Assembly (NCBI GenBank): GCA_028873375.1
Contig: JAGWKU010000001.1
Location: 11,763-75,762 of the forward strand
DNA from: Verrucomicrobiota bacterium
GTDB lineage: Bacteria; Chlamydiota; Chlamydiia; Chlamydiales; SM23-39
Length of the DNA: 64,000 nt
Reading direction: 5' to 3'
Under the pieces are notes generated by a model. It searched no databases. It was not told the DNA's origin and saw only the letters and a program-made list of their open reading frames with translations. Within the stretch, counting starts at the first letter, position 1; each line of letters opens with the position of its first letter. Made by a program: the position numbers and the translations under genes. Of this stretch, positions 4,607 through 63,610 are shown one piece after another.

Positions 4607-7564
4607 ATGTCGGAGCAGATTCTTCTCTTTAGTCATTCTCTCGATCAATTGGTTGATGAGCTAGCAAATCAGCTGGCCCTCACTACTCTTTTTTCGTCTC
4701 CTTTGATCATCATTCCCCACCTTTCCATGAAAGAATGGCTACAAATCGAGCTTGCTAAGCGGGCAAAAAATCGAGGAGTAGCTGCGCTCCATTTTGCTAC
4801 TTGGCAGCAAGGAATTCAACGGTTGACAGAGCCATTGCCAACTCCAAGTCGGGCTGAATTATTTGCGGCGATTTGGATAGCCTTAAAAGAGGAGCCGCCT
4901 ATTCAGTGCCAACCTTTTTTAGCGACTCAGCGAAAAATGCTCGATTTTGCAAATCGCTTGGCCGCTGAATTTTGGGAAGGCAGCTTGTATGGGTTCGTAC
5001 AAGAAGAGAGTTGGCAGAAACTTTTTTTTGATAAAATTTTCAAAATCCATCACTGGCTACCTCTTTATCTTGCAATAGAACAAGCGCCAATCGATGATTC
5101 AACACCTCTTTTTCTCTTTGGAATCGATTTTTTGCCTTCCGCCGTGCATCAATTTTTTTGGAAGCATCCAACCTTGAATGTCTTTCGCTTTTCTCCCTGC
5201 GCTATGTTTTGGGAAGACATTCGCTCAGTTTCTGAACAGAAATCCATCTTGCGCCAATGGAAACGGAAAAGGGTCTCATTGAACCGTTTAGAGTCGCTCG
5301 AGGGATTGCTTCGCGAAGGTCAACCACTTCTTGCTAACTGGGGTTTTATCGGTCGCAAAATGTTGGGACAACCTATCGAAGAAGAGGTTCAAGTTTTTGA
5401 AAATTATGAACTTAGAGACAAATGTAAAGCGGCTTTACATTTAATTCAGGAAGATTTTTTGTTACTGCAAACGAGAGAATCAACCCCTTTAGATGACTCG
5501 ATTCAATTGATCCAGGCGGGAGCTTCTAAACTGCGCGAAATCGAACTGCTTCGGGATGAGGTGATCCGTTTAGCGGCTAACGGCTTCTCTTTCTCTGAAG
5601 TGCGGGTTTATGCGCCTGACATCGATGTATATGCCCCTCTGATCCAATTTGTGTTTAGTGATCCTATTCAGTCCATTCCGTTTCGCATTGCGGGACTTAA
5701 CCTCTCTTGTCAAAGCCCCTTTTATCAAGCGCTCACTCGTTTATTTGACTGTGTAACCGGTCGATGGAGTGCGAAGGATTTGCTCGTCCTTTTCGAGAAT
5801 CCCTCTTTTGCTTGTAAAGCCAGTTGGAAAGAGGAGGATTTAGAGCAATTGCGCTCGTGGGTTGAGTATGCGCATGTTCGCTGGGGAATCGATGGGGCTC
5901 ATAGAAATGAGATTGGAGCTGAAAATGTCGAAGCTCCCACTTCTTCTTTAGGTAGTTGGGAAGAAGGTTTTGATCGCTTGATCGATGGATGGCTCTTTTT
6001 GCGTCCGGAGCGCGAGGATTTTATCCAGTGGAGCAATGCTGATTTATTTCAACATTTCTGCAATGTATTCCATGGATTGCGGAGCACGCTGGCTCCTTGG
6101 AAAAGAGAGCGCTCATTGAAAGAGTGGGCCGATGAAATTTCTGAATTAGCGACTGCCTACCTTGTTTTAAACGAGGACTTGGAATCAGATACAGCGGCGC
6201 ACAAGGATTTCTTTCGTTTTTTAGAAACTCTGCGTCATGCCCAAGAGGCCTTTCCTAATCAGACATTTCCCTTTTCGTGGGTTCGAACTTTGTTCTCTCC
6301 TTCTACTCTAGGTACCCAGGGAAGATCTCTTTTGCATGGCGTTTCATTTGCCTCTCTTGAACCAGGTGCTGTTTTGCCTGCTCGGGCTCTATTTTTGATT
6401 GGTTTAGATGAAGAGAGCTTTCCTCGAGCACCCTCTTTTCTCCGCTCTACAGAGGCGCCGCAGCAAAATCAATGGGATCGCTATCTATTTTTAGAAGCAG
6501 TATTCGCAGCCAAAGAGCGGCTGATTTTTAGTTATTGCCACCGCTCTAAAGAGGATGGTAAAGCCGTCAGTCCTTCTCTTCTGATTCAAGAGCTTTATAG
6601 CTATTTGAATGCCTCTTTACCGGAGGTAGCTCCTCCCGCGTCTTCGATTGATCCGCGTTGCTTTACAGGAAATGGCGCCTCTCTTTCTGATTACCACGTC
6701 GCTCAAGCAGCTCTCTCACCAACTCCTCATGCTCTGTTTTCTAATATGGAGAAAGTGCCAGACGAGGCGATGCCTTCTCATGCAACGCTGACTCTCGGAG
6801 AGCTCAATCGTTTCATGAGGCATCCGTGGCAGAATTATTTACAGGAAATCGTCGGCCTAGAATTCAAAGAAGAGAGCGAATCAGAATGGAAAGACTTTGA
6901 ATTTTCTCCTCTTTTTCAACATCGCTTCCTTCAAAAAGCTTTGCAAGGTCAACCAATAGAAACAGGATTTCCATTGGGGCTTTTGGGAGAAGAGGCAAAA
7001 CGTTCGATGGAAGAGAAGGTTCGTGAATACAAAGCTCGCTTGCGAGAATGGAATATCTCTTCGATGAGCGAAAGAAAGGGAAAGCTAGTTTTGAAATGGG
7101 AAACATCCACCATTCGCTTGATTGGATCTGCTTCATTGGCAGTACCAGATGGCTTGCTTTACATTGGCGACGATTCGATTCGAGGAATGCTTCGGAGGTG
7201 GCCTGAACTTCTTTTTAGTTTAGCATACAGTGAGACCCGTCGTATTTATTGTATGCGGAGCGGTCGAGTGAGAGAAGTAATAGAACCGCTTTCTTCCCTC
7301 CAGGCGATTGTAGAACTCTATTATCGATGCCGTTTTTTACCTCTTTTTTTACATCCCGATTGGGCCGATGAATTGCTACGCAAAGGAGTCTCTCCCGATC
7401 GAGACTGTGACGATCCTCTTCTCGAATGGACTTTGGAAAGAAGCTCCTCGTTTGATTTGCAAAAAGAACAAATTACTTGGAGAGAAACGTTAGAAAAGAC
7501 CTTCACCTCTTTGATTTCTTTATTCCCCACTCGAAAATCGAGAGGTGCTCATGCAGAAGTTTGA
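4607..7564 (+). CDS. recC: Exodeoxyribonuclease V gamma subunit RecC
   Basis: The length (~985 aa), the N-terminus MSEQILLFSHSLDQLVDELANQL (compare E. coli MLRVYHSNRLDVL) and the position directly upstream of recB-recD support the call. I start at ATG 4607, not the ORF-track start at 4391. Confidence 0.85.
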   Translation: MSEQILLFSHSLDQLVDELANQLALTTLFSSPLIIIPHLSMKEWLQIELAKRAKNRGVAALHFATWQQGIQRLTEPLPTPSRAELFAAIWIALKEEPPIQCQPFLATQRKMLDFANRLAAEFWEGSLYGFVQEESWQKLFFDKIFKIHHWLPLYLAIEQAPIDDSTPLFLFGIDFLPSAVHQFFWKHPTLNVFRFSPCAMFWEDIRSVSEQKSILRQWKRKRVSLNRLESLEGLLREGQPLLANWGFIGRKMLGQPIEEEVQVFENYELRDKCKAALHLIQEDFLLLQTRESTPLDDSIQLIQAGASKLREIELLRDEVIRLAANGFSFSEVRVYAPDIDVYAPLIQFVFSDPIQSIPFRIAGLNLSCQSPFYQALTRLFDCVTGRWSAKDLLVLFENPSFACKASWKEEDLEQLRSWVEYAHVRWGIDGAHRNEIGAENVEAPTSSLGSWEEGFDRLIDGWLFLRPEREDFIQWSNADLFQHFCNVFHGLRSTLAPWKRERSLKEWADEISELATAYLVLNEDLESDTAAHKDFFRFLETLRHAQEAFPNQTFPFSWVRTLFSPSTLGTQGRSLLHGVSFASLEPGAVLPARALFLIGLDEESFPRAPSFLRSTEAPQQNQWDRYLFLEAVFAAKERLIFSYCHRSKEDGKAVSPSLLIQELYSYLNASLPEVAPPASSIDPRCFTGNGASLSDYHVAQAALSPTPHALFSNMEKVPDEAMPSHATLTLGELNRFMRHPWQNYLQEIVGLEFKEESESEWKDFEFSPLFQHRFLQKALQGQPIETGFPLGLLGEEAKRSMEEKVREYKARLREWNISSMSERKGKLVLKWETSTIRLIGSASLAVPDGLLYIGDDSIRGMLRRWPELLFSLAYSETRRIYCMRSGRVREVIEPLSSLQAIVELYYRCRFLPLFLHPDWADELLRKGVSPDRDCDDPLLEWTLERSSSFDLQKEQITWRETLEKTFTSLISLFPTRKSRGAHAEV
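5420..5442. repeat. Palindromic repeat AAATGTAAAGC-g-GCTTTACATTT, copy inside recC
   Basis: Perfect 11-bp arms with one centre nucleotide. It is read in frame as KCKAALHL. Confidence 0.95.
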
Positions 7565-10500
7565 TTGCCTTGCAGCCTCGACTCCTGTACTCGGCCCCCA
7601 TTTTCTCGAAGCTTCTGCAGGCACAGGAAAAACCTTTGCGGTCGAACACATCGTTGCGCGGCTTCTGCTGCATGAATCTCCCATGGAACTGGAACAGATT
7701 CTCGTTGTTACGTTTACTCGGGCGGCGGCTCGCGAACTCAAATTGAGGATTCGTTCTAATATAGAGCGGATTGCTCGCGGCCAACTGGTCCCATGGGAAT
7801 ATTTAGCCGCATGCAAGGACCCCTCGTCTGTTCGACAGCGGATGAGCGATGCTTTGGCCGCGTTTGATCGGTGTCAGATCTATACCATTCACGGTTTTTG
7901 CTCTCGGATGCTTCGCGAGTTTTCCTTTGAGGCTGGGATTGGCTTTACATGGAAGGAATCTTTTTCCTCTCCTCGGCTTTTAGCGGCTTTACAAGACTTT
8001 TTTGAGATGAAGCTGTCTAAGGAAGTCGTCAGTCCCGAGCAACTGGGCATTGTTGTTCGATGGGCAGGATCGGTGGAAGAATTGGGTCGCAAGCTCAAAA
8101 AAGCGGCCAAGATAGTGCCTGCAAAATTTTTTCGCGATCGAGAGGAAGAGTTTGCTGCTCTGTTGCAAAGCCGATCTCCTGAAGAATTGATTTCTCTAGC
8201 TCAAGAATTCGAAGCAGTAAAGTCGCTGTACAAAGCTGAAGTGAAAGGAGACTTTAAAGGACAGATAGAAGTTCTGAGCTCGTTCGATTGGGAAGCTGCA
8301 TTTCGAGAGTTGATTCGGCATAAAGGGACTCTTTTTCTCTATCTTGCCCCAGAGAATCGAAAAGTAAATGCAAAGGGATCTATGCCTCATCCTTTTTTCG
8401 ATTGGGGCCGGAAAACCTTATTGCCTCTGATCGAATCGGCGGCAGATCCTCAAGAAATTTTCCAACAGCTTCTTGCGGTTTGGAAACCCATTGAATTTCG
8501 GATTGCACAGGAAGAGGGGATTTTAAATCCCGATCAATTGCTGAGCACTATGGGTTCTGCTATCCAGCAAGAAACTTTTCGAAACAGTGTGCGAGGAAAA
8601 TATCGAGCCGTTCTCATCGATGAATTCCAAGACACCGACCCGATCCAGTGGGATATTTTCCAGGCCTTGTTTCTTCACCAAGTAGAGGCTCTTTATTTGA
8701 TCGGCGATCCCAAACAATCCATTTACCGGTTCCGACAAGCTGATCTCTATACCTATTTAAAAGCAAAAGAGACGATTGCTCCTCATTGTCACTTCCACCT
8801 AGATACCAATTTTCGTTCTTCCAAAGAATTGATTGGGGCTTTGAATCTCCTCTTTGATCGGGAGTGGCTTAAGTTGCCAAAAGAAGGGCGCACACTCCCC
8901 TATCTTCCTGTGCGGGCAGGTTTAGACCTTTCAACTGACTTTAAAGATGGGAAGGGAGCGATCCATTGCCTCTTGTTTCAAGAAGAAATTTCGGAGCTTT
9001 TCCCCTATCTTGTGCAGGAAATTAGAAATCTGAGAGACCAAGTTGTTTCGCTGAGCTCGTTTGCCGTATTGGTCAAAGATCGATACCAAGCAGCCGCTGT
9101 GCAGCAGGCGCTTGCCATTGCTGGAATTTCGAGTATGGCTAAGAGCCAAGAACCTCTTTCTGAAACGCTCGCTTTTGAAGCGATGGAAGAGTTGTTTGAA
9201 GCTCTTCGGGAGCCAAGACATTTAGGGAAAGCGAAGGTTGTTTTAGCAGGCCCTTTTGGAAGATATGCTGCAGAAGAACTACAACGGGTGGAAGAATCTC
9301 CTTTCGTAGAACTGCGGGCTATTCTGGAAGAGAAAGGATGGACAGCGGCTTGCCAAGCCTTTTTAAAAATGCGCTCCAAAGGGAAGACAGTCCAAGAAAA
9401 CATGGCTTTACAAGGCCGCTCCTTCTATGCCGATTGCCACCAAGTCTTTGAAGTTCTTTTAGATTGGGAGCGAAGAGAGGGCTTTTCCTTTGAGGGATTG
9501 GGTCGATTCTTTGATTCTCTTCATCGGATGGATCCTGAAGAAGCGCCTTGCCAGAGGAAAGATTCTGATGCGGAGGCCGTCCAAATCATGACAATGCATG
9601 TGAGCAAGGGGCTGGAATTTGATGTGGTATTTGCATTGGGCTTGGGAACGAGAACTCCAGAGTGTGATGTAGAGGCAGAGGCAGAAAAATTAAGACAGTT
9701 ATATGTAGCGACTACTAGAGCTAAACGGCGGCTTTACATCCCGATCCCTACGAGCTTGAAAAAAGCAGAAATGGGGACTCATGCCCCCATTGAGCTCTTT
9801 TGTGAAACATTGGGATCTTGGAAGGAAGAGCTTCGCCGTTTATCAGGAGAGGCGAGTTTGTCGATCGAAGAATTGCCCTCTCTGGTTGCCGTAACTCCTC
9901 CCTTTCATTTTACTCCTTCTCTTGTTCCTCCTGCCTTCCAGTTACCCTCGGTATCACCTTCCTATCTTCTCTCTTTCACGGCGCTGGCAAAAGAAACTTC
10001 TCTCAAACCTCTGGCTTCTATCGCTGACCCACAAGGAAATTATACAATTCATAATTTACCGAGAGGTCCAGAAACAGGAGTCGTTCTCCACGCGCTTTTT
10101 GAATGGATCTATCAAGAAAAGCAAGCTTGGAAATCTCCTGAACGAATCCAAGAAATCGTAGAGCAAGATCTTCCGGCTCTCTTTTCTCCGTGGAAAAAAG
10201 CGATTCTCCAAATGATCGAAGAGACGCTTACTTTCCGTTTGCCTATGGGGTTTTGCTTGCGCGATGTAAAGCCAGGAAATGTCCTCGTTGAAACAGAGTT
10301 TGTCTTTCAATCGCAGAAGAATTTTCTGACGGGATTCATTGATCTTTTGTTTATTCATGAGGAGAAGGTATATTTCGTTGATTGGAAGACGAATTGGCTT
10401 GGCGAAGATGCAAGCCATTATTCAGAGCCAGAGTTAAAAGCAGCCATTGCTGCGCATCAGTATGACTTGCAAGCTCGCATTTATAGAGAAGCATTAGAAC

Positions 10501-10589: not shown

Positions 10590-12123
10590 ACTTTCTTTAG
10601 AAAAGCGCCTTGTCAATCGAATTCTACGAGAGAAAAAATCTCCGCAGCTTGAAGAGTTTCTTCTCGGATTTTTAGAAAGTGTGAGGGAAGGACATCTCTG
10701 CTCCAAAATAGACGATCCTTCCCTTCTTCCCTCAGATGTTGTGTCAATAGGAGATGAGCAAACTCCTTTTCCAGAAAAGCCCCTTGTTTTGCAGGAAAAT
10801 CGCCTCTATTTACAGCGCAATTGGGCACTTGAATCTCTGATTGTTCACAAAGCGGCGGAACTCTCTTCACGAACTCCCGTTGTCTTAGATCGGCACCGCT
10901 TTGAGCAGGCGTTGACATCGATGCAAGAAACGCTTCAGCCGGGCCAAAAAAAAGCCATTGAAAGAGCCTATGACCAAATGTTTTCTCTCTTTACTGGAGG
11001 TCCGGGAACTGGCAAAACTTACACGGCAGGTTGTTTTATCCGCCTTCTAGCGGCTTGCCATCCGACTCCTCCGTTTAAAGTAGTGATTGCGGCGCCAACA
11101 GGAAAAGCGGCAGCGCACTTAGAGAGCTCATTAAAAGCTCAGAGTTCTTTGTATTTTCATTGCGAATCGATGACGCTTCATCGTTTACTAAAGTTATATC
11201 CCGGCCAGCATCGCTTTTTTTCAGATAGATTAATTGATGCTGATCTAGTGGTGGTAGATGAAGCTTCAATGATCGATGTTTCTCTTATGCTTCATTTATT
11301 AAATTCAATCGGCCCCGAAACGCGTCTCCTATTATTAGGAGATCCCAATCAACTCCCGCCCGTCGAAGCTGGGAGTCTTTTTGCAGAGATGGCAGAATTG
11401 CTTGGTCACCCTCTTGAACGATCTATGCGAACAGCTGATCCATTTTTGCTTAGCTTGGCAGAAGCGATTCAAAAAGGAGATATCCAGCCAATTCGAGAAG
11501 CGATCACTCCTTTCCCAAATTCGCTCATCGAAGAACTTTGCAGGCGGCTCCATTCGCCGATTCATTCTGTTTCGCCTGATCCTATGGGTTGCTTGCAAGA
11601 GCAAAAGCGGTTTCGTATTTTGTGTGCTTTGCGCCAAGGGCCTTTAGGAGTAGATGCTTTAAACCGAGAATTGATCCATCGATTTGAAAGGCAACTGGGG
11701 CCAGCAGATTGGCTATCGATACCTATTTTGATTACCCAAAATGATCCGCGGAGACAGCTTTACAATGGGACGATGGGAGTATTGATTCAGCAAGCAAGAG
11801 GAACTCAAGGAACTGCTTATTTAATGACGGGAGACCAAGTCCGTGCCTTTCCTGTCAATGCTCTACCTCATTTTGAGGCAGCTTTTTGTCTATCTGTGCA
11901 CAAGAGCCAGGGAAGCGAATTCGAAGAGGTAATGATTCTTTTTCCACCAGGGAGTGAGCGATTCGGTAAAGAAGCTCTTTACACGGCGGTCACGCGGGCA
12001 AAGAGAAAGGCGATGTTGATGGGGGATGCGGCTTTATTGGAAGAGGCTTTAAAAATGCCTTTGCGAAAACGCTCTGGTTTTACAGAGCGTTTCCTTGCGT
12101 TTAAGCAGAAACTCTGTTGCTAA
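10582..12123 (+). CDS. recD: Exodeoxyribonuclease V alpha subunit RecD
   Basis: Walker A is GGPGTGKTYT, with VVVDEASMID and a C-terminal SVHKSQGSEF...YTAVTRAK. ATG 10582 overlaps the recB stop by 8 nt. Confidence 0.9.
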   Translation: MDELSLEKRLVNRILREKKSPQLEEFLLGFLESVREGHLCSKIDDPSLLPSDVVSIGDEQTPFPEKPLVLQENRLYLQRNWALESLIVHKAAELSSRTPVVLDRHRFEQALTSMQETLQPGQKKAIERAYDQMFSLFTGGPGTGKTYTAGCFIRLLAACHPTPPFKVVIAAPTGKAAAHLESSLKAQSSLYFHCESMTLHRLLKLYPGQHRFFSDRLIDADLVVVDEASMIDVSLMLHLLNSIGPETRLLLLGDPNQLPPVEAGSLFAEMAELLGHPLERSMRTADPFLLSLAEAIQKGDIQPIREAITPFPNSLIEELCRRLHSPIHSVSPDPMGCLQEQKRFRILCALRQGPLGVDALNRELIHRFERQLGPADWLSIPILITQNDPRRQLYNGTMGVLIQQARGTQGTAYLMTGDQVRAFPVNALPHFEAAFCLSVHKSQGSEFEEVMILFPPGSERFGKEALYTAVTRAKRKAMLMGDAALLEEALKMPLRKRSGFTERFLAFKQKLCC

Positions 12124-15640: not shown

Positions 15641-15663
15641 AAATGTAAAGCCGCTTTACATTT
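15641..15663. repeat. Palindromic repeat AAATGTAAAGC-c-GCTTTACATTT, first of a tandem pair after rpoD
   Basis: Perfect 11-bp arms. It starts 18 nt after the rpoD stop. Confidence 0.95.
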
Positions 15664-15677: not shown

Positions 15678-15702
15678 CAAATGTAAAGCCGCTTTACATT
15701 TG
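15678..15702. repeat. Palindromic repeat CAAATGTAAAGC-c-GCTTTACATTTG, second of the tandem pair
   Basis: Perfect 12-bp arms. About 15 bp separates it from the first copy. Confidence 0.95.
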
Positions 15703-16146: not shown

Positions 16147-17340
16147 ATGATTTTTTTTGAACATGTAATAGAAGGCCCTCCCGATGCCGTCTTTGGGTTG
16201 ATGGGAACATTTCGAGCTGATCAAAGACCCGAGAAAATCAATTTAATGGTCGGAATCTACAAAGATGAGCATCTCAAAAGCGAAGTGATGCCGGTAGTGA
16301 AAAAGGCGAAGGAAAAAGTGCTCGCCTCTGATCAAATGGCCGATTATTTGCCTTTTGACGGGGCTCCCCAGTTCTTTGAGTCCTTGGGTAAATTGGTCTT
16401 TAGAGAATGGGGGAACGTCGAAGATCGGGTATATGCCACACAGGCCATTGGCGGTACAGGGGCCCTTCGACTGGGGGCTGACTTTTTGGCTCAGGAAGTT
16501 GGAAAGAGGGTTTGGATCCCGCAGCCGACGTGGGCTAATCATCGGGGAATCTTTGAAAGGGCTGGCTTTACAGTAGAGACATTGCCCTATTATAGCTCGG
16601 CCCAGCATGGGATTGATAAGAGTGCTTATTTCAAACATCTTCGCTCGCTTCCTCCAAAAAGCGTCGTTCTCTTCCATGGAACGTGTCACAATCCGACTGG
16701 ATGTGATCCTACGCTGGAAGAATGGAAAGAAATTTCTCACATCTGCAAGGAGCGTTCTCTCCTTCCTTTCTTCGATTTTGCTTACCAGGGATTTGGAGAT
16801 GGGGTTGAGGAGGATGCAGGGCCGGTGCGTCTTTTTCTCGATGAAGGACATGAGTTTTTAGTGGCTTATTCGTGTTCGAAGAACTTTAGTTTGTATTGTC
16901 AGAGGGTTGGAGCTCTCTTTGTCGTCTGCAAAGAGGCGGCTGTAAAGCCAAGAGTAGGAAGTCAAATCAAGAGAATTATCCGAACGACGTATTCCAATCC
17001 TCCTGCTCATGGGGCCAAAATTGTAGCGGAAGTTTTAAACGACCGAGCGTTGAAGGTTGAGTGGTTGAAAGAATTAGATCAGATGCGCCACCGTATTTCG
17101 CAAGCGCGCGCTTTGTTGGTCAAAAAATTAGTCGCTAAAGCAAAGAAAATCGACTTTCGATTTGTACAGCAGCACAAAGGAATGTTTTCTTATCTCGATC
17201 TAAGTCCCAAGCAAGTAAAAGAATTGATGGAGAAGCATGGGATTTACATGTTGGATAGCGGCCGGATCAATGTGGCAGGATTGACTTCTCAAAATATCGA
17301 TCGTGTAGTAGACCAGGTGATTGCGGTGAGTGAAGCGTGA
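16147..17340 (+). CDS. aspC: Aspartate/aromatic aminotransferase (class I)
   Basis: It carries the PLP-lysine motif SCSKNFSLYCQRVGAL, the GTCHNPTG block and the conserved YSNPPAHGA. Confidence 0.9.
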   Translation: MIFFEHVIEGPPDAVFGLMGTFRADQRPEKINLMVGIYKDEHLKSEVMPVVKKAKEKVLASDQMADYLPFDGAPQFFESLGKLVFREWGNVEDRVYATQAIGGTGALRLGADFLAQEVGKRVWIPQPTWANHRGIFERAGFTVETLPYYSSAQHGIDKSAYFKHLRSLPPKSVVLFHGTCHNPTGCDPTLEEWKEISHICKERSLLPFFDFAYQGFGDGVEEDAGPVRLFLDEGHEFLVAYSCSKNFSLYCQRVGALFVVCKEAAVKPRVGSQIKRIIRTTYSNPPAHGAKIVAEVLNDRALKVEWLKELDQMRHRISQARALLVKKLVAKAKKIDFRFVQQHKGMFSYLDLSPKQVKELMEKHGIYMLDSGRINVAGLTSQNIDRVVDQVIAVSEA

Positions 17341-18401
17341 AACGCTCGTTTTTCTTGTTGCCTGTCTTTCTCTTTTTGCTTCTCAGCTTGCCTGAGGGCG
17401 CCTCTAATCGTCTCCGATCGCGTACGGTGGCTTTACTGTCTCCTTTTTGGAAATTAGGCGATGCGGCTCGAAAGCCTCTCGTTCCGGTGGCCCCTGTTTC
17501 TTCTCAGGAAGTGAATAGCTTGCAGTTGGAAAATCATCAATTGCGAAGCCAGCTCGATCTAGTTTACGAATGGCTGAGTTCAGAAAAGCGGTTGCGCGAT
17601 CAAATCGATGTGTTTCGCGAATTGAAGGGAGAGCCCAAGGAATTCATTGAGCGACGGACGAAGGAGATGAAAGCTCTCCTTCAAAAACAAGCGATGGCGG
17701 CCTTTGGACGGATCATTTATCGCGATCCGAATTCATGGAGCAGCAGCTGCTGGATTGATGTGGGAGAAGAGGATAATGAGGCGCTCGGTCAGCCTATTGT
17801 GGCCAAGAATAGCCCTGTTGTCGCAGGCGCTTCTTTGGTCGGCATTGTGGAGTATGTAGGCAAACGACATTCTCGAGTGAGACTCATCACCGATTCAGGA
17901 TTGAAAATTGCAGTACGAGCTGTGAGAGGGTCGATTCAAGAGCGAGAAATGGCCTCATTGGTACATGTCTTGCTTGATCGATTGCAGAGATACTCTCAAG
18001 GGAAAGAACAGGTCGCGGTCGATGGATTGGCGCAGTTGGAAAAAAAATTCCCGGTTCGGTGGAGCGATTCTTATTTAGCAAAGGGAGAGGTTTTTGGCAG
18101 TAGCGCTACCTATTTTCGCTCTCTCAAGTCGACATTGAAGGGAGTTGGATTCAATTGTGATGTGAGTGACGCAGAAGGGCCTGCTCGTGATTTGCGAAGT
18201 GGAATTTTAAAAAAGGGAGATTTTCTCCTCACTTCCGGCCTCGATGGAGTTTTTCCTCCTGGGCTGAAAGTGGGTGTTGTCAGCTCTGTAAAGCCGCTGC
18301 GTGAAGGGGCCTTTGCCTATGAATTAGAGGCTGTTCCCTCGGCGGAGAATTTGTCTGATCTTACTTCTATCTACGTCCTCCCCCCCCTTAGCTTGGAGTG
18401 A
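17337..18401 (+). CDS. mreC: Rod-shape determining protein MreC
   Basis: An N-terminal TM and coiled-coil segment is followed by VVAGASLVGIVEYVGKRHSRVRLITDSGLKIAV and LLTSGLDGVFPPGLKVG, both typical of MreC. The GTG start overlaps the aspC stop (GTGA). Confidence 0.8.
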   Translation: MKRSFFLLPVFLFLLLSLPEGASNRLRSRTVALLSPFWKLGDAARKPLVPVAPVSSQEVNSLQLENHQLRSQLDLVYEWLSSEKRLRDQIDVFRELKGEPKEFIERRTKEMKALLQKQAMAAFGRIIYRDPNSWSSSCWIDVGEEDNEALGQPIVAKNSPVVAGASLVGIVEYVGKRHSRVRLITDSGLKIAVRAVRGSIQEREMASLVHVLLDRLQRYSQGKEQVAVDGLAQLEKKFPVRWSDSYLAKGEVFGSSATYFRSLKSTLKGVGFNCDVSDAEGPARDLRSGILKKGDFLLTSGLDGVFPPGLKVGVVSSVKPLREGAFAYELEAVPSAENLSDLTSIYVLPPLSLE

Positions 18402-47308: not shown

Positions 47309-47945
47309 TTTTAAATACAACGCTCAGTGAAGCACTTTTATTTAAGCACGGAAACTGTAGCTCAGGCAACCGCTTTTTTAAAAACTCTTCATTTTTTTCG
47401 TTTTTCGTCTCGAGAATTTCTAAACTGGCGACATGCCCTGCTGTATCGATGGTTAATCGAACTTTCACTTCCCCATATTCTGGGAGTTCTAAAGCATTTT
47501 GCAAAAAGAGAGCGATCGAATCAAAGTCAGTTTCTTTTTCTTCTTCATGAGGCGTGTTGAATTGAATGGTAGGAACCGCGATCGCTGATTTGGTGGAAGG
47601 GACGGGAGTGGATAGTGATTCGAGATTTTTAGTGATCTCTTGCAGTAAAGCATCAGAGGGAGGAGAAACAACAGGCGCGACTTTTTTGGGAACCGCTTTT
47701 GGAATTGCCTTGGTTGGTTGAGAAGTTGTCTTTTTAGGGGCTGGCTTTACAAGAGAAGAGGATTGGATTGCAACCGGTTGAGGAGAAGGGGCGCGGAAGG
47801 TGCGGACGGCAATAGGGCGACGGCGTGGGAGAGGGCGATCGATCCAATAATTTCCGAGCATGAGGATGACGAGAAGGGCATGGGCGCAAAGGACACCCAG
47901 TGTAATTTGTTTTCCGCGAGTAAGTGATCGAAAGGAAAAGCTCAT
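47298..47945 (-). CDS. TolA/TonB-like energy-transducing protein
   Basis: An N-terminal TM and a Pro/Lys/Ala-rich spacer (PAPKKTTSQPTKAIPKAVPKKVAPVVSPP) precede a small C-terminal domain. It lies between tolR and tolB. Confidence 0.65.
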   Translation of the reverse strand: MSFSFRSLTRGKQITLGVLCAHALLVILMLGNYWIDRPLPRRRPIAVRTFRAPSPQPVAIQSSSLVKPAPKKTTSQPTKAIPKAVPKKVAPVVSPPSDALLQEITKNLESLSTPVPSTKSAIAVPTIQFNTPHEEEKETDFDSIALFLQNALELPEYGEVKVRLTIDTAGHVASLEILETKNEKNEEFLKKRLPELQFPCLNKSASLSVVFKNAL

Positions 47946-49165: not shown

Positions 49166-49186
49166 AATGTAAAGCTGCTTTACATT
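49166..49186. repeat. Palindromic repeat AATGTAAAGC-t-GCTTTACATT in the tolQ/tatD divergent region
   Basis: Perfect 10-bp arms. It ends 10 nt before the tatD ATG. Confidence 0.95.
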
Positions 49187-53642: not shown

Positions 53643-55016
53643 ATGACAAAGAAGATTCCTTTTTTCTCGTTGATCATCCTCATCATTGCGGCGATTGACA
53701 ACATCCGAAATCTCCCAGCGACAGCGCTGTTTGGCTCTTCACTGGTTTTCTTTTTTGTTCTGTCGGCGATCGTATTTTTGATTCCAATCTCGTTGATGTC
53801 AGCGGAACTTTCGGCGGCATTTCCGGAAAAGGGGGGAGTCTATCAATGGATCAACCGGGCGTTCGGTAAAAAATGGGCCATGGCGGCGATCTGGCTCCAG
53901 TGGATCAATACGATGGTATGGTATCCGACCATTCTCTCTTTTATTGCTGGAACGTTGTCTTATTTGATCGACCCGGCGCTGGCACAAAATAAGGCTTATC
54001 TTTTGTCGGTTATCCTCGTTATTTTCTGGGGATTGACATGGGTCAATTTAAAAGGAATCCACGTCTCTACGATGATCAATAACGTTTGCGCGACGATTGG
54101 TACTGTTGTTCCCATGATTTTCTTGATCGCACTAGGGGCTATGTGGTTCTTCAGTGGGAAGCCGATCCAAGTTTCTTTTACGCGCGATGCGATGATTCCT
54201 TCTTTTACTAATTTGACGAGCTGGAGTTCCTTAATTGCAATCATGGCTTCTTTTTTAGGAATGGAGCTGTCGGGCGTCCATGTGAATGACATCTACGAAC
54301 CGCAAAAGAATTTTCCAAAGGCTGTGTTCTTGGCGAGCTTGTTTATCTTCCTGACTATGCTATTTGGCTCTCTCTCGATTGCTTTTGTCGTGCCGACAAA
54401 TGAGATCAATCTGGTGTCAGGAGTGATGCAAGTATTTACGAGTTTCTTTTATGCATTTGGATTGCAGGCATTGATTCCGTTGTTGACGTTGATGATTGTG
54501 ATTGGTTCGACAGGGACGATGATCAACTGGCTCATTTCACCCGCTAAAGGGTTATTGCATGCGGCTGAATTTGGATTCCTACCTCCTTTTTTCAGTCGGA
54601 AAAACAAAGCAGGGGTAGCTTCGAATATCTTGATTGCTCAAGCGGTGGTTGTAAGTCTCGTCTGTTTGGTTTTCTTATTGGAGCCGACAATCAATGCTTT
54701 CTACTGGTTTTTGACGGCCTTGAGTACAGAGCTTTACATGATCATGTATGTCATGATCTTTTGCGCAGGGGTGCGATTGCATTACAAATATATTGATCGG
54801 CCTTCGACCTTCAAGATCCCAGGCAATGGATGGGGCATGTGGGCTACGGCTCTTCTGGGGTTGGTCGGATGCCTTCTGACCATTATCATCAGCTTTTTGC
54901 CGCCCGATACGATCATTACGACTCCAGGTCGTTATCTATCGATGATTTGCATCGGCAATTTAGTTTCGATTAGCCCGCTCTTTCTCTTCTATTGGTATCA
55001 ACGAAAAACTTCATAA
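53643..55016 (+). CDS. APC-superfamily amino-acid permease (glutamate/GABA-antiporter-like)
   Basis: It has about twelve TM helices. The N-terminal block is AIDNIRNLPATALFGSSLVFFFVLSAIVFLIPISLMSAELSAAFPEKGGVYQW. ATG 53643 is used instead of the ORF-track TTG. Confidence 0.75.
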   Translation: MTKKIPFFSLIILIIAAIDNIRNLPATALFGSSLVFFFVLSAIVFLIPISLMSAELSAAFPEKGGVYQWINRAFGKKWAMAAIWLQWINTMVWYPTILSFIAGTLSYLIDPALAQNKAYLLSVILVIFWGLTWVNLKGIHVSTMINNVCATIGTVVPMIFLIALGAMWFFSGKPIQVSFTRDAMIPSFTNLTSWSSLIAIMASFLGMELSGVHVNDIYEPQKNFPKAVFLASLFIFLTMLFGSLSIAFVVPTNEINLVSGVMQVFTSFFYAFGLQALIPLLTLMIVIGSTGTMINWLISPAKGLLHAAEFGFLPPFFSRKNKAGVASNILIAQAVVVSLVCLVFLLEPTINAFYWFLTALSTELYMIMYVMIFCAGVRLHYKYIDRPSTFKIPGNGWGMWATALLGLVGCLLTIIISFLPPDTIITTPGRYLSMICIGNLVSISPLFLFYWYQRKTS

Positions 55017-59269: not shown

Positions 59270-61096
59270 CTAACGGTTTCGCTTTTCCAGCGCAACCATC
59301 AAGATGGAGATGTCAGAGGGAGAAAGACCTGAAATGCGAGAAGCAGATCCAAGATTTTCGGGTGTGAAGCGGCCTAGTTTTTGTTTTGCTTCTGCTCGTA
59401 GCCCGACGATGGAGGAGTAATCGAATTCTTTGGGAATGCGGATCACATCGAGATGCTCTAATTTGGCTACTTCTTTGTGTTGTCGTTGGATATAGCCGGC
59501 ATACTTGAGTTCGAGTTCGATTTGGGTGTTGAGATCGGAGCCAAAGTCGGCGATGAGAGCTGGATAAGCGGCTCGTGCTTTTTCGTAATCCCAGTCGGGG
59601 CGAGAGATCAATTGAGCCATGCTGATCCCCTTTCCTTCGATCGTTTTGTAGACGGTGGCAAGGCGAACGATTTCTGTCTCAATGGTCTTTTGCTTTTCGA
59701 TCACTCGGTCGTATTGAGCGCGGGTGATGAGGCCGAGTTCATAGGCCATGGGGCGAAGGCGCAAATCAGCGTTGTCTTGTCGCAGCAAGAGGCGATGTTC
59801 GGCGCGGCTGGTGAACATTCGGTAGGGTTCAGTCAGGTCGAAGCGGATCAGGTCGTCGATCATGACGCCGATGTAGCTATCACTGCGGCGCATGATGAAA
59901 GGAGATTTTCCAAGGGCTTTACAGGCGGCGTTGATGCCTGCGATCATCCCCTGCCCGGCTGCTTCTTCATAGCCGGTGGTCCCATTGACTTGTCCAGAGA
60001 GGAAAAGTCCTTCGACGAGTTTGGTTTCCAGGGTGGGAGATATTTGATCGCTCTTCACGTAGTCGTATTCAATCGCATAGGCAGAGCGGAGAATCTCGGC
60101 ATTTTCGAGACCTGTTACGCTGTGAATGAGATCGAGTTGGACGTCGAAAGGAAGGGATGTCGAGATTCCGTTGACATAGACCTCTTCGGTCATCAGGCCT
60201 TCAGGTTCGAGGAAGATTTGGTGGCGATCTTTGTCGGCAAAGCGGACTACTTTGTCTTCGATGGAGGGGCAATAGCGGGGACCGACTCCTTGAATTACGC
60301 CTGCATAGAGCGGCGAACGGTGGAGGTTGGCTTCGATGATCTGCTTGGTTTCAGGGGTGGTATAGGTGATGTGGCAGGCGATTTGCTGCATGCGAGGTTC
60401 TGGTTCATCGTAGGAAAAGCTGACCCACTCATCACTCAATTGCTCTTCGCATTTAGAGAAATCGATGCTGCGTCGGTGGATACGGGGTGGGGTCCCGGTC
60501 TTAAGGCGCCCGAGCCGAAAGCCGAGACTCTCGAGGCAAGGTGATAACCCGGTCGCTGCTTTATCTCCTGCGCGGCCCCCAGAGAAATTGGTCATCCCTA
60601 TGTGGATGAGTCCCTTCATAAAGGTGCCTGAGGAGAGGACTACGGTTTTAGCGCGGTAGGCAATCCCTTCCTGGGTCCCTACCCCCATGATCTGCCCCCC
60701 TTCCACAAGGAGGGACTCGGTGGTGCCTTGCTTGATGTGGAGGTAGGGGGTTTTTTCAAGCCGGAGCTTCATTTCCAGGGCATAGGCTGCCTTATCTGCC
60801 TGAGAACGAGGGGATCTCACCGCAGGCCCTTTGGAGGCATTGAGCATCCGGAACTGGATGCTCCGGCGGTCAGCCACCTTTCCCATGAGTCCGCCGAGGG
60901 CATCGATCTCACGGACCATATGCCCCTTGGCGGTGCCTCCGATCGACGGGTTGCAGCTCATCTTCCCGATGGTATCGAGATTCATAGTGAGCAAGAGGGT
61001 CTTACACCCCATCCGCGCAGCAGCGTGAGCTGCCTCGCAGCCGGCATGGCCAGCCCCTATCACTATGACATCAAAGATTTCCGGATAATTCCACAT
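59270..61096 (-). CDS. mnmG: tRNA uridine-5-carboxymethylaminomethyl modification enzyme MnmG (GidA)
   Basis: The N-terminus is FDVIVIGAGHAGCEAA...MSCNPSIGGTAKGHMVREIDALGG. The length is typical at 608 aa. Confidence 0.97.
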   Translation of the reverse strand: MWNYPEIFDVIVIGAGHAGCEAAHAAARMGCKTLLLTMNLDTIGKMSCNPSIGGTAKGHMVREIDALGGLMGKVADRRSIQFRMLNASKGPAVRSPRSQADKAAYALEMKLRLEKTPYLHIKQGTTESLLVEGGQIMGVGTQEGIAYRAKTVVLSSGTFMKGLIHIGMTNFSGGRAGDKAATGLSPCLESLGFRLGRLKTGTPPRIHRRSIDFSKCEEQLSDEWVSFSYDEPEPRMQQIACHITYTTPETKQIIEANLHRSPLYAGVIQGVGPRYCPSIEDKVVRFADKDRHQIFLEPEGLMTEEVYVNGISTSLPFDVQLDLIHSVTGLENAEILRSAYAIEYDYVKSDQISPTLETKLVEGLFLSGQVNGTTGYEEAAGQGMIAGINAACKALGKSPFIMRRSDSYIGVMIDDLIRFDLTEPYRMFTSRAEHRLLLRQDNADLRLRPMAYELGLITRAQYDRVIEKQKTIETEIVRLATVYKTIEGKGISMAQLISRPDWDYEKARAAYPALIADFGSDLNTQIELELKYAGYIQRQHKEVAKLEHLDVIRIPKEFDYSSIVGLRAEAKQKLGRFTPENLGSASRISGLSPSDISILMVALEKRNR

Positions 61097-61103
61097 GATG
61101 AGT

Positions 61104-61129: not shown

Positions 61130-61135
61130 CGCGAT

Positions 61136-61225: not shown

Positions 61226-61250
61226 AAACTTCCTTCCAAAGTTCTGGGCT

Positions 61251-61279: not shown

Positions 61280-61320
61280 GGACTCCTTGCAGGCACCCTT
61301 ATCATATAGGATTAAAAATT

Positions 61321-63589: not shown

Positions 63590-63610
63590 AATGTAAAGCC
63601 GCTTTACATT
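63590..63610. repeat. Palindromic repeat AATGTAAAGC-c-GCTTTACATT after the small ORF pair
   Basis: Perfect 10-bp arms. It starts 11 nt after the stop at 63579. Confidence 0.95.

What the first reader, a model, noticed from the sequence alone, without database searches (positions are those of the whole stretch)
5420..63610. Family of perfect 21-25 bp palindromes (A)AATGTAAAGC-N-GCTTTACATT(T): eight copies in 64 kb
By direct reading I find eight copies whose 10-12 bp arms are identical, at 5420, 15641, 15678, 25599, 33633, 40039, 49166 and 63590. Only the single centre nucleotide varies (g,c,c,a,c,g,t,c). That pattern fits selection on arm complementarity, as for a hairpin or a dimeric protein site, rather than recent duplication of one locus.

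Five copies sit immediately after stop codons or overlap them: rpoD (two copies), the MORN gene, the MFS gene at 40054 and the small ORF at 63579. One lies 10 nt before the tatD ATG, and two lie inside ORFs. None is followed by a U-tract, so these are not classical intrinsic terminators.

Possible roles are a REP/BIME-like element, an RNA 3'-end stabiliser, an operator for an unknown regulator, or a DNA-uptake-signal-like motif. I do not recognise it as a described repeat family.
Basis: seen in the sequence. Interest (0 to 1): 0.8.

Follow-up and report, generated by a model that had tools for sequence, protein, structure and literature searches.

The report
Chlamydial conserved palindrome shared with phages
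The eight palindromes are real copies of one fixed 17-19 bp DNA word that recurs in at least 46 chlamydial genome assemblies and in a large group of unstudied ~40 kb tailed phages, and it behaves like a recognition tag read by an unknown protein, perhaps a DNA-uptake or "self" signal, rather than a terminator or a jumping repeat.

Summary
Observation confirmed. There are eight exact copies of ATGTAAAGC-N-GCTTTACAT at the stated positions, none expected by chance, and no copy with 1-4 mismatches.

The element is a compact dyad with strict core TGTAAAGC-N-GCTTTACA and random flanks. The same sequence occurs in 46 other genome assemblies, nearly all Chlamydiota (GC 0.29-0.59). It is absent from 676 kb of non-chlamydial controls.

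Copies inside genes replace orthologous codons without indels, mostly through synonymous changes. So they arise by substitution under DNA-level selection or drive, not by transposition. No compensatory arm changes were seen, and the RNA hairpin is weak. What matters is therefore the sequence, not the structure.

With the palindromes masked, the half-word TGTAAAGCC(A) is the most over-represented 9-10-mer in the window (64-fold for the 10-mer). It lies on both strands and in all frames, and 9 of 19 copies are in recC/recB/recD. The palindrome loci are evenly spaced at about 10 kb (P≈0.003).

The same dyad also fills a related group of uncultured ~40 kb tailed phages.

Best reading (about 0.35): a DUS/USS-like self-DNA tag read by a dimeric protein. 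Rivals are a roadblock or nucleoid-protein site, a nuclease self-marker copied by phages, and a protein-bound RNA hairpin. REP/MITE and plain terminator are rejected. No description of the motif was found.

The parts
5420..5442 (.). Palindrome copy 1, AAATGTAAAGC-G-GCTTTACATTT. Inside recC, read as C-K-A-A-L-H.
15641..15663 (.). Palindrome copy 2. Its 19-mer core starts 19 nt after the rpoD stop. First of a doublet.
15678..15702 (.). Palindrome copy 3 (25 bp). Second of the doublet. Together the two copies fold into a long hairpin of -33.8 kcal/mol. A convergent tRNA gene follows at 15968-16040 (-).
25599..25621 (.). Palindrome copy 4. Inside the gspD secretin gene, read as N-V-K-Q-L-Y-I. Conserved exactly at the orthologous site in L001, and with one outer mismatch in L067.
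33633..33653 (.). Palindrome copy 5. Abuts the TAA stop of the MORN-repeat gene, at a convergent junction with an rsmD-like gene.
40039..40061 (.). Palindrome copy 6. At a convergent junction. The motif's own TAA, read on the - strand, is the stop codon of the MFS gene.
49166..49186 (.). Palindrome copy 7. In the divergent tolQ/tatD spacer. The 19-mer core ends 11 nt before the tatD ATG.
63590..63610 (.). Palindrome copy 8. Intergenic, near the end of the window.
5813..5820 (+). Isolated half-word TGTAAAGC(CA) in recC
6660..6667 (-). Isolated half-word in recC
7156..7163 (-). Isolated half-word in recC
7942..7949 (-). Isolated half-word (TGTAAAGCCA) in recB
7986..7993 (-). Isolated half-word in recB
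9405..9412 (-). Isolated half-word (TGTAAAGCCA) in recB
9731..9738 (-). Isolated half-word in recB
10265..10272 (+). Isolated half-word (TGTAAAGCCA) in recB
11757..11764 (-). Isolated half-word in recD
16565..16572 (-). Isolated half-word (TGTAAAGCCA) in the aminotransferase gene
16941..16948 (+). Isolated half-word (TGTAAAGCCA) in the aminotransferase gene
18287..18294 (+). Isolated half-word in the 3' end of mreC. It faces the word at 18451 across an overlapping convergent gene pair.
18451..18458 (-). Isolated half-word (TGTAAAGCCA) in the 3' end of the gene at 18324-19376 (-)
24013..24020 (+). Isolated half-word (TGTAAAGCCA) in the ORF 23852-25063
26439..26446 (+). Isolated half-word in gspD
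36825..36832 (+). Isolated half-word, antisense in the TPR gene
47744..47751 (-). Isolated half-word (TGTAAAGCCA) in the ORF 47298-47945 (-)
54731..54738 (-). Isolated half-word in the amino-acid permease gene
59916..59923 (-). Isolated half-word in mnmG/gidA

Best explanation
The eight palindromes belong to a family of fixed-sequence dyads, (A)TGTAAAGC-N-GCTTTACA(T), found widely in Chlamydiota.

Shown:
- The sequence itself is kept by selection or drive acting on DNA.
- Copies arise and decay by point substitution, inside genes as well as between them.
- The element has no flanking homology, no target duplication and no arm covariation.

Inferred, about 0.8 confidence:
- A conserved sequence-specific factor reads the dyad, most simply a homodimeric protein with one subunit per TGTAAAG arm. 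The positions that tolerate change are the outermost A/T and the C/G next to the centre.

Inferred, and the mechanism I commit to (about 0.35):
- The dyad and its half-word TGTAAAGCC(A) act as a self-DNA tag of the DNA-uptake-sequence kind. A component of the chlamydial competence machinery would prefer DNA that carries the tag. Candidate components are the Gsp-type pseudopilus and secretin, ComEC and a CoiA-like nuclease.
- Biased uptake followed by recombination would then spread and refresh perfect copies wherever the coding sequence tolerates them. Selection for at least one tag per fragment taken up would give the even spacing of about 10 kb.
- Intergenic copies pile up right after stop codons because that is where 17 fixed bases cost least. 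There they may also serve as weak two-way hairpins or roadblocks at converging genes.
- Phages of these bacteria carry the same tag. Either it lets their DNA be taken up or handled as self, or they depend on the same host factor.
For: 1. Eight exact copies against 0 expected. Flanks are random beyond +/-2 nt in 118 further copies.

The named ones are almost all Chlamydiota. The pattern is expected only about 9 times by chance in the 596 Gb scanned. There are no copies with up to 3 mismatches in 676 kb around rpoD of 66 non-chlamydial bacteria.

3. Substitution, not insertion. Orthologues that lack the motif align without gaps. In the secretin, the window reads AAT GTA AAG CAG CTT TAC ATT and L118 reads TAT GCT AAA CAA CTT TAT ATT, so three of the five differences in the motif are synonymous. 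The copy in gspD is 100% identical between the window and L001, while that stretch of the genome is about 72-75% identical overall.

4. Signatures also seen in DUS/USS systems:
- With the palindromes masked, TGTAAAGCC is the most over-represented 9-mer in the window (13 against 0.52 expected) and in the other chlamydial loci (64 against 7.05).
- The 10-mer TGTAAAGCCA occurs 9 times against 0.14 expected. Its one-mismatch neighbours occur 15 times against 4.2. Controls show 0 against 0.75.
- The words lie on both strands (7 on +, 12 on -), in both orientations relative to the genes and in all usable reading frames.
- Nine of the 19 isolated words, plus one palindrome, lie in recC/recB/recD, which make up 12% of the window. 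Other copies lie in uvrB (L097), mutY (L118) and recD (L083).
- Inverted pairs sit at gene 3' ends. Many use their own TAA as the stop codon (distance -6) or abut the stop (0 or -1).

5. Spacing of the seven palindrome loci has a CV of 0.25. P=0.003 for the CV and P=0.0016 for the smallest gap.

6. Competence-type genes are in the window: a CoiA-like nuclease (12972-13850, conserved next to rpoD in L117 and L118), gspD/E/F and a pseudopilin.

7. The same dyad, with the same outer A/T preference, occurs in at least 120 phage stretches. It also occurs in a family member picked through its portal gene rather than through the motif.
Against: 1. Known uptake sequences are asymmetric single words. 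Here the dominant and most widespread form is a dyad with a fixed 1-nt centre. Several genomes carry the dyad without any excess of the half-word, for example JAGWZL, DATIIR and CAYNWC.

2. The isolated words are not precursors of the dyads. Their would-be second arm matches no better than chance, and intermediates are rare.

3. Density is lower than for DUS/USS. The window has about one dyad per 8 kb and one word per 1.8 kb. Most relatives have far less, and several show nothing in 21 kb.

4. Biased uptake has never been shown for any chlamydia, and no receptor has been identified.

5. It is unclear why phages that are never seen integrated would gather an uptake tag. A host DNA- or RNA-binding factor, or a nuclease self-marker, explains that more directly.

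6. The repair-gene clustering rests on a few loci. A tally of 67 host proteins shows only about 10% DNA-repair proteins.

Confidence: 0.35

Rival explanations
1. The dyad is the binding site of a conserved dimeric DNA-binding protein with a structural or transcriptional role. The protein could act as a two-way roadblock at gene ends, like the many 'stoperator' sites of cluster A mycobacteriophages. Or it could be a nucleoid-organising protein with evenly spaced anchor sites, like matS/MatP or NBS/Noc. Phages would use the same host factor.
For: - The dyad has a strict 1-nt centre. Tolerated changes are limited to the outermost and innermost positions.
- Spacing is even at about 10 kb.
- All three convergent junctions in the window that have real intergenic space carry a copy.
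- A copy recurs just after rpoD in the window, L139, L124 and L129.
- In phages the usual layout is stop, dyad, Shine-Dalgarno, ATG. Only 1 of 73 intergenic copies lies in a divergent spacer.
- The dyad occurs in genomes that have no excess of the half-word.
Against: - This reading does not explain the 25-64-fold excess of isolated half-words, or their spread over all frames and both orientations.
- About 40-45% of copies lie inside genes, spread along their length. A roadblock there would be harmful.
- In the chlamydial loci, junction type is not significantly biased. My chi-square on the counts gives p of about 0.1.
- No candidate protein was found.
- The window has no parS-like site.
Confidence: 0.27
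2. The motif is a self-marker that protects DNA from a host nuclease. It would work like Chi for RecBCD, or for an unknown defence system, and the phages copy it to escape degradation.
For: - recB, recC and recD are present.
- The 8-10-nt half-word has the right size for a Chi-type signal and is the most over-represented word.
- A dyad presents the word in both directions.
- Regular spacing suits a protective role.
- The phage group carries both the dyad and a 5-fold excess of the 10-mer.
Against: - Chi sequences are asymmetric and co-oriented with replication. Here the isolated words split 7 on + and 12 on -, on a stretch whose GC skew is positive throughout.
- Nothing in Chi biology calls for a fixed 1-nt dyad.
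- Many genomes have the dyad without extra half-words.
- The fold excess is much larger than is typical for Chi (my own knowledge).
Confidence: 0.15
3. The functional form is an RNA hairpin, or a single-stranded DNA hairpin, bound by a sequence-specific factor. It would act as a 3'-end stabiliser, a processing site between cistrons, or a factor-dependent terminator.
For: - Intergenic copies sit close to stop codons.
- In phages they lie between a stop codon and the next ribosome-binding site.
- The innermost C-N-G, which would form the loop, is the most variable part.
- The rpoD doublet and the composite element fold strongly, at -33.8 and -49.8 kcal/mol.
Against: - About 260 copies show no covariation.
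- A single hairpin is weak and no different from shuffled sequence.
- There is no U-tract, and the terminator scan does not call the palindromes.
- About 40-45% of copies are inside genes at all positions.
- The isolated half-words lie in both orientations relative to transcription.
Confidence: 0.12
4. The palindrome is a selfish mobile element: a REP moved by a RAYT transposase, or a minimal MITE made of two abutted terminal repeats.
For: - It is repeated, palindromic and mostly intergenic.
- A composite element of about 100 nt, with the same outer arms, does behave like an insertion. It is in frame in recD of L083 but absent from the orthologues.
Against: - The basic dyad has no flanking homology and no target duplication.
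- Copies inside genes are substitutions without indels.
- The identical sequence occurs in 46 assemblies with very different GC. REPs are typically specific to a species or genus (my own knowledge).
- None of the 50 window ORFs scanned matches a transposase family.
Confidence: 0.05

Closest known systems
DNA uptake sequences: DUS of Neisseriaceae (AT-GCCGTCTGAA) and USS of Pasteurellaceae (AAGTGCGGT core)
   Same: - A short fixed word is hugely over-represented, on both strands and in all reading frames.
- It is fitted into coding sequence by substitution.
- It is shared by many related species.
- Inverted pairs lie just downstream of genes.
- One-mismatch variants are moderately enriched.
- Spacing is more even than random.
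- Copies are frequent in DNA-repair genes.

The properties of DUS and USS come from my own knowledge and from PMC1590033, which cites Smith 1999 and Davidsen 2004.
   Different: - The unit here is mainly a perfect dyad with a fixed 1-nt centre, not an asymmetric word with pairs at variable spacing.
- Density is about 5-10 times lower.
- Several genomes have the dyad without any half-word excess.
- Uptake bias has not been tested.
- The motif is shared with phages that are never seen integrated.
Stoperators of cluster A mycobacteriophages (many repressor sites in short intergenic spacers) and the start-associated sequences of cluster K phages
   Same: Many identical short sites are scattered through a phage genome in tiny spacers, next to stop and start codons.
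   Different: - Stoperators are asymmetric 13-mers, oriented with transcription, bound by a phage repressor and confined to the phage.
- Here the site is a symmetric dyad, it is also found inside genes, and it is conserved in host housekeeping genes.

The comparison rests on my own knowledge.
Chromosomal dyad sites of nucleoid-organising proteins: parS/ParB, NBS/Noc, matS/MatP
   Same: Short palindromes are conserved over large evolutionary distances, lie both inside and between genes, and are read by dimeric proteins. matS also has an odd-length centre.
   Different: - The sequence is unrelated. The window has no parS-like site.
- The window's density of one per 8 kb is much higher.
- Those systems have no half-word excess.
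- Confinement to a chromosomal domain could not be tested.
REP/BIME elements and RAYT transposases
   Same: A repeated short palindrome, mostly extragenic, often at the 3' ends of genes.
   Different: - REPs are imperfect, specific to a lineage, strictly extragenic and mobilised.
- Here the dyad is perfect, identical across many species, 45% intragenic and created by substitution.
Chi sites (RecBCD/AddAB)
   Same: An over-represented 5-8-nt word in genomes that encode RecBCD. It is found in coding sequence and can be carried by phages.
   Different: Chi is asymmetric and skewed by strand. Here there is no skew (7 against 12), and the word comes as a strict dyad.

Membership tests
DNA uptake sequence (DUS/USS) | DNA carrying the word is taken up preferentially by competent cells | not testable with these tools
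   Needs uptake or transformation assays. No such data for chlamydiae were found in the literature searches.
DNA uptake sequence (DUS/USS) | A short word is strongly over-represented, with no strand bias, in all reading frames | tested here: met
   TGTAAAGCC occurs 13 times against 0.52 expected, and TGTAAAGCCA 9 times against 0.14. The 19 isolated TGTAAAGC words split 7 on + and 12 on -, lie in both orientations relative to the genes and use several frames. This covers only 64 kb of this genome.
DNA uptake sequence (DUS/USS) | The unit is an asymmetric single word, and inverted pairs are a minority with variable spacing | tested here: not met
   The dominant form is a dyad with a fixed 1-nt centre. 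Some genomes have the dyad only.
DNA uptake sequence (DUS/USS) | Hundreds to thousands of copies per genome, about one per kb | tested here: inconclusive
   The window has 35 words in 64 kb, or one per 1.8 kb. Whole genomes could not be counted, and relatives are much poorer in copies.
DNA uptake sequence (DUS/USS) | Competence machinery is present | tested here: inconclusive
   A CoiA-like nuclease, gspD/E/F and a pseudopilin are in the window. ComEC, DprA and ComEA were not looked for.
REP/BIME (RAYT-mobilised) | Strictly extragenic, an imperfect palindrome, with a lineage-specific sequence | tested here: not met
   Of 128 copies, 57 are intragenic. The dyad is perfect and identical in 46 assemblies with GC 0.29-0.59.
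REP/BIME (RAYT-mobilised) | A cognate Y1 transposase (RAYT) gene flanked by REPs | tested here: inconclusive
   None of the 50 window ORFs scanned with Pfam is a transposase. The rest of the genome was not seen.
MITE | Insertion with terminal inverted repeats and a target-site duplication, with empty sites in orthologues | tested here: not met
   The basic dyad has no duplication and random flanks. Orthologues align without gaps. The composite element of about 100 nt may qualify.
Intrinsic (Rho-independent) terminator | A G+C-rich stem followed by a U-tract | tested here: not met
   The stem is A/U-rich, folds at -5 to -9 kcal/mol with z -0.6 to -2.1, and is followed by only 2-3 T. The consensus scan does not call it.
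Intrinsic (Rho-independent) terminator | The stem is free to covary, and the site is limited to 3' ends of transcription units | tested here: not met
   There is no covariation. Intragenic copies are spread along genes.
Chi | An asymmetric word co-oriented with replication | tested here: not met
   The words split 7 on + and 12 on -, on a stretch with uniformly positive GC skew. The sample is small.
parS / ParB | A match to the 16-bp parS consensus | tested here: not met
   No site with up to 3 mismatches in the window. The dyad sequence is unrelated.
Known RNA family (Rfam) | A match to a curated covariance model | tested here: not met
   Only tRNAs were found in the window and in the eight loci that carry the composite element.

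The most novel reading that the evidence does not exclude
Chlamydiota carry a lineage-wide DNA tag, the dyad TGTAAAGC-N-GCTTTACA and its half-word. A conserved protein would use it to tell chlamydial DNA from the overwhelming excess of host-cell DNA, either for uptake and recombination or for sparing it from a nuclease. A large, previously unrecognised group of ~40 kb tailed phages would infect environmental chlamydiae and have copied the tag. That would be a third independent uptake or self-recognition signal system in bacteria, the first in an obligate intracellular phylum, and a sequence handle for finding chlamydial phages in metagenomes.
Probability: 0.25. Interest if true: 0.9.

Novelty: new variant of a known kind. 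Interest (0 to 1): 0.8.

Why it matters
Chlamydiae exchange DNA, and in C. trachomatis this depends on a ComEC homologue (my own knowledge). No recognition signal has been described for them.

A conserved tag that marks chlamydial DNA would explain how an intracellular bacterium, surrounded by host nucleic acid, restricts exchange to its own kin. It would give geneticists a sequence to add to transforming DNA.

Whatever its function, three practical uses follow:
- The exact 17-mer is a near-specific marker of chlamydial DNA in metagenomes.
- It points to an unknown conserved DNA-binding activity that can be fished out with an oligonucleotide.
- It links a large orphan phage group to a host phylum for which, to my knowledge, only small Microviridae phages are known.

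Tried and rejected
- **Chance or low complexity.** Rejected by the shuffles and the controls.
- **Part of a longer repeat or MITE.** Rejected, because the flanks are random.
- **A peptide motif driving the DNA repeat.** Rejected. The copies occur in two frames, giving CKAALH or xVKxLYI, in dozens of unrelated proteins. The isolated words occur in five frame and orientation classes.
- **A regulon operator.** Rejected. Host and neighbouring genes are very diverse and 45% of copies are intragenic. The paper on phylum-wide chlamydial regulators mentions no such palindrome.
- **Known RNA family.** No Rfam hit.
- **parS.** Absent from the window.
- **Gradual growth of dyads from half-words.** Not supported. 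The second arms of the isolated words match at chance level.
- **Locating this genome.** Exact-protein look-ups for three window proteins found nothing. The best RpoD match is 93% identical, from uncultured Parachlamydiales or Rhabdochlamydiaceae-like bacteria.
- **Phage identification.** There is no DNA match among 50,697 GenBank phages. The portal protein is only about 23% identical to Ralstonia phage portals. Cluster look-ups returned no organism names.
- **A DNA-binding protein shared by phages and chlamydial loci.** The search found only a sigma-70 region 4-like ORF in 3 of 120 phage stretches. This is suggestive for host assignment but is not an explanation of the motif.
- **Literature.** Searches for the sequence and for related concepts found no description.

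Full report

Yes. ATGTAAAGCNGCTTTACAT occurs exactly eight times in the window, at 5422, 15643, 15681, 25601, 33634, 40041, 49167 and 63591. The centres are g,c,c,a,c,g,t,c. None of 100 dinucleotide-preserving shuffles contained a copy.

Allowing three mismatches adds nothing, and my own scan at four mismatches adds nothing either. In this genome the family is all-or-none.

- Two copies lie after rpoD.
- One abuts the stop of the MORN-repeat gene.
- One supplies the stop codon of an MFS gene.
- One ends 11 nt before the tatD ATG.
- Two lie inside ORFs, which are recC and the gspD secretin.

**2. Anatomy**

I aligned 118 further copies from other genomes. Positions beyond +/-2 nt have background composition. 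There is therefore no longer repeat, no terminal structure and no target duplication.

The strict core is the 17-mer TGTAAAGC-N-GCTTTACA:
- The outer A/T is preferred, at 58-70%.
- The centre is C or G in 75% of chlamydial copies.
- In samples not selected for the motif, the tolerated changes sit at the outermost pair or at the C/G next to the centre. Examples are GT or GA in place of GC in L124, L129 and L321, and one copy with a 2-nt centre in L129.
- No copy shows compensating changes in both arms.

As RNA, a single copy folds weakly, at about -5 to -9 kcal/mol with z-scores of -0.6 to -2.1. Only the rpoD doublet makes a strong hairpin, at -33.8 kcal/mol. A consensus scan does not call the palindromes terminators. 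Sequence is conserved, not pairing.

**3. Who has it?**

They come from 46 assemblies whose GC ranges from 0.29 to 0.59.
- The named assemblies are almost all Chlamydiota: Parachlamydiales, the Simkaniaceae member 'Amphrikana', and Anoxychlamydiales.
- The unnamed 'uncultured bacterium' bins share orthologues with the named ones at 57-86% amino-acid identity.
- Three hits in other phyla fit the roughly nine chance matches expected for 18 fixed bases in 596 Gb.

The window itself comes from an uncultured Parachlamydiales or Rhabdochlamydiaceae-like bacterium. Its best RpoD match is 93% identical.

I then took an unbiased sample, meaning DNA fetched through rpoD and not through the motif:
- 66 non-chlamydial loci (676 kb) have no dyad with up to 3 mismatches, and background levels of the half-word.
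- Among chlamydial relatives, perfect copies occur in L118, L121 and L139.
- One-mismatch copies occur in L118, L124 and L129.
- Several 21-kb stretches have nothing: L117, L122, L128 and L130.

So the family is old and widespread, but its density varies between lineages, and copies do decay.

**4. How do copies arise?**

They arise by substitution. Where a protein carries a copy and a homologue does not, the two align without a gap:
- secretin: NVKQLYI against VRQLYS or YAKQLYI;
- TatD: CKAALH against APAILH;
- an acyltransferase, a glycogen phosphorylase and an M24 peptidase.

At the secretin site the window reads AAT GTA AAG CAG CTT TAC ATT and L118 reads TAT GCT AAA CAA CTT TAT ATT. Three of the five differences within the motif are synonymous. 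The window and L001 share the 19-mer exactly, although this stretch of the genome is only about 72-75% identical between them overall.

The motif is therefore written onto existing codons at the DNA level. That excludes transposition for the basic unit.

Positions can persist. A copy lies just after rpoD in the window (twice), in L139, and with one mismatch in L124 and L129. Positions can also be lost: L118 has no copy after rpoD or in the secretin gene.

**5. Where do copies sit?**

I placed 128 copies using a simple longest-ORF gene caller, so distances are approximate:
- 57 are inside genes, in two frames (CKAALH or xVKxLYI), in very diverse proteins, and spread along gene length.
- About 60 are intergenic. 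With 90% of the sequence coding, that is an eight-fold enrichment.
- Intergenic copies occur at all four kinds of gene junction. My chi-square on the counts gives no significant preference (p about 0.1).
- They sit close to stop codons. Many genes end at the motif's own TAA, or immediately before the motif.

In the window, all three convergent junctions that have real intergenic space carry a copy.

The seven palindrome loci are spaced 6.4-14.4 kb apart. The CV is 0.25, with P=0.003 for the CV and P=0.0016 for the smallest gap.

**6. A second layer: the half-word**

With the dyads masked, TGTAAAGCC is the most over-represented 9-mer in the window (13 against 0.52 expected). It is also the most over-represented in the other chlamydial loci (64 against 7.05).

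The 10-mer TGTAAAGCCA occurs 9 times against 0.14 expected. Its one-mismatch neighbours occur 15 times against 4.2. The controls show no excess.

The 19 isolated 8-mers lie on both strands (7 on +, 12 on -) and in both orientations relative to the genes. They fall in five of the six possible frame classes.

Their would-be second arm matches the dyad no better than chance, so they are a separate class and not decayed or nascent dyads.

Nine of the 19, plus one dyad, lie in recC/recB/recD, which is 12% of the window. Elsewhere:
- A glycosyltransferase and uvrB in L097 carry 12 words in 1.4 kb.
- mutY and recB/recD in L118 carry near-perfect dyads.

The half-word excess differs between genomes, from none to more than 10 per 10 kb.

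**7. The phage link**

The outer A/T preference is the same.
- About fifty of the parent contigs are 35-43 kb long.
- They encode a portal (P22-type), major head protein, terminase, Erf, RecE-like and RusA proteins and replication initiators.
- 118 of the 120 stretches form one protein-sharing network, and 42 carry a homologous portal.
- Portal homologues number at least 435, and their longest contigs are all about 37-42 kb. They are never embedded in a chromosome.
- Nothing similar exists among 50,697 GenBank phages at the DNA level. The portal is about 23% identical to its nearest named relatives.

One family member was fetched through its portal gene rather than through the motif. It has two one-mismatch dyads in 22 kb, against about 0.0003 expected by my estimate.

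In the phages, 50 copies are intragenic. Intergenic copies typically fill the spacer in the order stop codon, dyad, Shine-Dalgarno, ATG. That is the layout seen at tatD in the window.

Among cellular genomes the dyad is essentially confined to Chlamydiota. Three phage stretches also encode a sigma-70 region 4-like ORF that is most similar to chlamydial RpoD: 68-71% identity over 66 residues, and the only named database hit is 'Chlamydiia bacterium'. I therefore infer that these phages infect chlamydiae. This is an inference and has not been shown.

**8. A composite element**

In eight loci from five assemblies, a dyad is followed by about 20 nt and then GGGGnCCCCGAAAACGCaTCGTTTTTGGGGttt. This is a hairpin with a T-run. 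A hybrid dyad, TGTATTGC-N-GCTTTACA, comes next.

The whole unit folds into one long hairpin of -49.8 kcal/mol, z -5.6. It has no Rfam match. In L083 it sits in frame inside recD, where the orthologues have a gap.

This larger unit does look mobile. It is not present in the window.

**9. What is it?**

Steps I regard as shown:
- The family is real.
- It is defined by sequence, not by structure.
- It is maintained at the DNA level.
- It arises by substitution.
- It is shared across a phylum-level range of hosts and by one phage group.

From the strict dyad and the pattern of tolerated changes, I infer recognition by a specific and probably dimeric factor (about 0.8).

For the biological role, the most discriminating fact is the isolated half-word. 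To my knowledge, only three known processes produce a large excess of a short word within coding sequence, in all frames and both orientations: uptake sequences, Chi, and polar architecture words such as KOPS. Of these, only uptake sequences lack strand skew.

Several further features match what is described for DUS and USS: inverted pairs at gene ends, conservation across species, a moderate excess of one-mismatch variants, regular spacing, frequent location in repair genes, and competence-type genes nearby. The nearby genes are the CoiA-like nuclease next to rpoD, gspD/E/F and a pseudopilin.

I therefore commit to a DUS/USS-like self-DNA tag as the single most likely role, at about 0.35.

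The objections are serious:
- The dominant unit is a fixed dyad.
- Some genomes have the dyad without the half-word.
- Density is modest.
- The phages are not seen integrated.

The phage data fit at least as well with a host factor that both host and phage need. That factor could be a roadblock or nucleoid protein (0.27), or a nuclease self-marker that phages copy (0.15). A protein-bound RNA hairpin stays possible for the intergenic copies (0.12). REP/MITE mobility (0.05) and a plain intrinsic terminator are rejected for the basic unit.

**10. Comparison with known systems and novelty**

The genomic signature is closest to DUS/USS. However, membership fails on one defining feature, the asymmetric single word, and is untestable on the decisive one, biased uptake.

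The motif resembles parS, matS and NBS sites in being a conserved dyad found inside and outside genes, and mycobacteriophage stoperators in its phage layout. It matches none of them in sequence or in the other defining features.

I found no description of the motif in the searchable literature. I rate it a new variant of a known kind, namely genome-wide recognition words. There is a real chance that it is something not yet described.

**11. Caveats**

- Only 64 kb of this genome is available.
- The collection scans were truncated, so copy numbers per genome, replichore distribution and presence in Chlamydiaceae are unknown.
- Gene calls in fetched loci come from a simple longest-ORF heuristic.
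- The strand-skew and repair-gene statistics rest on small numbers.
- The host of the phages is inferred.

Noticed in passing
L024:7120-7250, L046:7640-7760, L056:2390-2510, L067:1130-1250, L083:2505-2620, L095:1-120, L111:1935-2055, L116:5365-5485: A composite palindromic element of about 100 nt: dyad, spacer, a GGGGnCCCCGAAAACGCaTCGTTTTTGGGG hairpin with a T-run, then the hybrid dyad TGTATTGC-N-GCTTTACA. It folds as one long hairpin (-49.8 kcal/mol, z -5.6) and has no Rfam match. In L083 it lies in frame inside recD where the orthologues have a gap, so it looks like a mobile insertion, reminiscent of Rickettsia palindromic elements. It is not present in the window.
   Followed up: partly
L201-L320 (IMG/VR), L321-L326: A large, diverse group of uncultured tailed phages of about 40 kb. 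They have a P22-type portal, Erf, RecE-like and RusA proteins and a DnaD-like loader. Portal homologues number at least 435 and are never seen integrated. There is no DNA similarity to GenBank phages. They carry the chlamydial dyad repeatedly and are probably phages of environmental chlamydiae, a host group for which I know only Microviridae.
   Followed up: partly
L272:9135-9878; also L260 and L238: Phage ORFs made of a sigma-70 region 4 domain followed by a long charged, coiled-coil-like tail. Region 4 is 68-71% identical over 66 residues to chlamydial RpoD. The only named database hit is 'Chlamydiia bacterium'. Such a protein could be a sigma mimic or appropriator. Note that the dyad arms contain the -35-like hexamer TTTACA.
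   Followed up: partly
window 4391-12123: The recC-recB-recD operon holds 9 of the 19 isolated half-words and one dyad in 12% of the window. The syntenic operon of the relative L118 has near-perfect dyads at other positions, and its mutY has one too.
   Followed up: partly
window 12972-13850 (-): An ORF with the CoiA competence-protein N-terminal and nuclease-like domains (Pfam E=1.7e-11 and 1.3e-7). It lies just upstream of rpoD on the opposite strand. The same neighbourhood is conserved in L117 and L118.
   Followed up: partly
L097:877-2309: In a chlamydial bin with 33% GC, a GT4 glycosyltransferase gene and the adjacent uvrB carry 10 isolated half-words and 2 dyads within 1.4 kb. The glycosyltransferase shows repeated VKP... 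and GFTT... peptide stretches that correspond to the words. One inverted word pair has a 15-nt spacer.
   Followed up: partly
L129:17075-17092: A dyad variant with a 2-nt centre (TGTAAAGC-GG-GCTTTACA). The same locus has 8 isolated 8-mers in 21.6 kb. Its RpoD is among those closest to the window's (93%).
   Followed up: no
window 18287-18294 (+) and 18451-18458 (-): Two half-words face each other 164 nt apart, each in the 3' end of one gene of an overlapping convergent pair (mreC and the gene at 18324-19376). They may stand in for a dyad where there is no intergenic space.
   Followed up: no
window 40049-40075: Directly after dyad copy 6 lies a small hairpin followed by a T-run (GAAGCTGAAGCTTTTTTT). 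This was the only terminator-like call overlapping a dyad.
   Followed up: no
window 23852-33633: One long co-directional block holds an unknown ORF, gspD, gspE, gspF, two small pseudopilin-like ORFs (one with the N-terminal methylation motif) and an 893-aa MORN-repeat protein. A dyad lies inside gspD and another at the end of the block.
   Followed up: partly
window 59270-62769 (-): mnmG/gidA and dnaB lie side by side near the end of the window. GC skew is positive over the whole 64 kb, so no origin or terminus lies within it.
   Followed up: no
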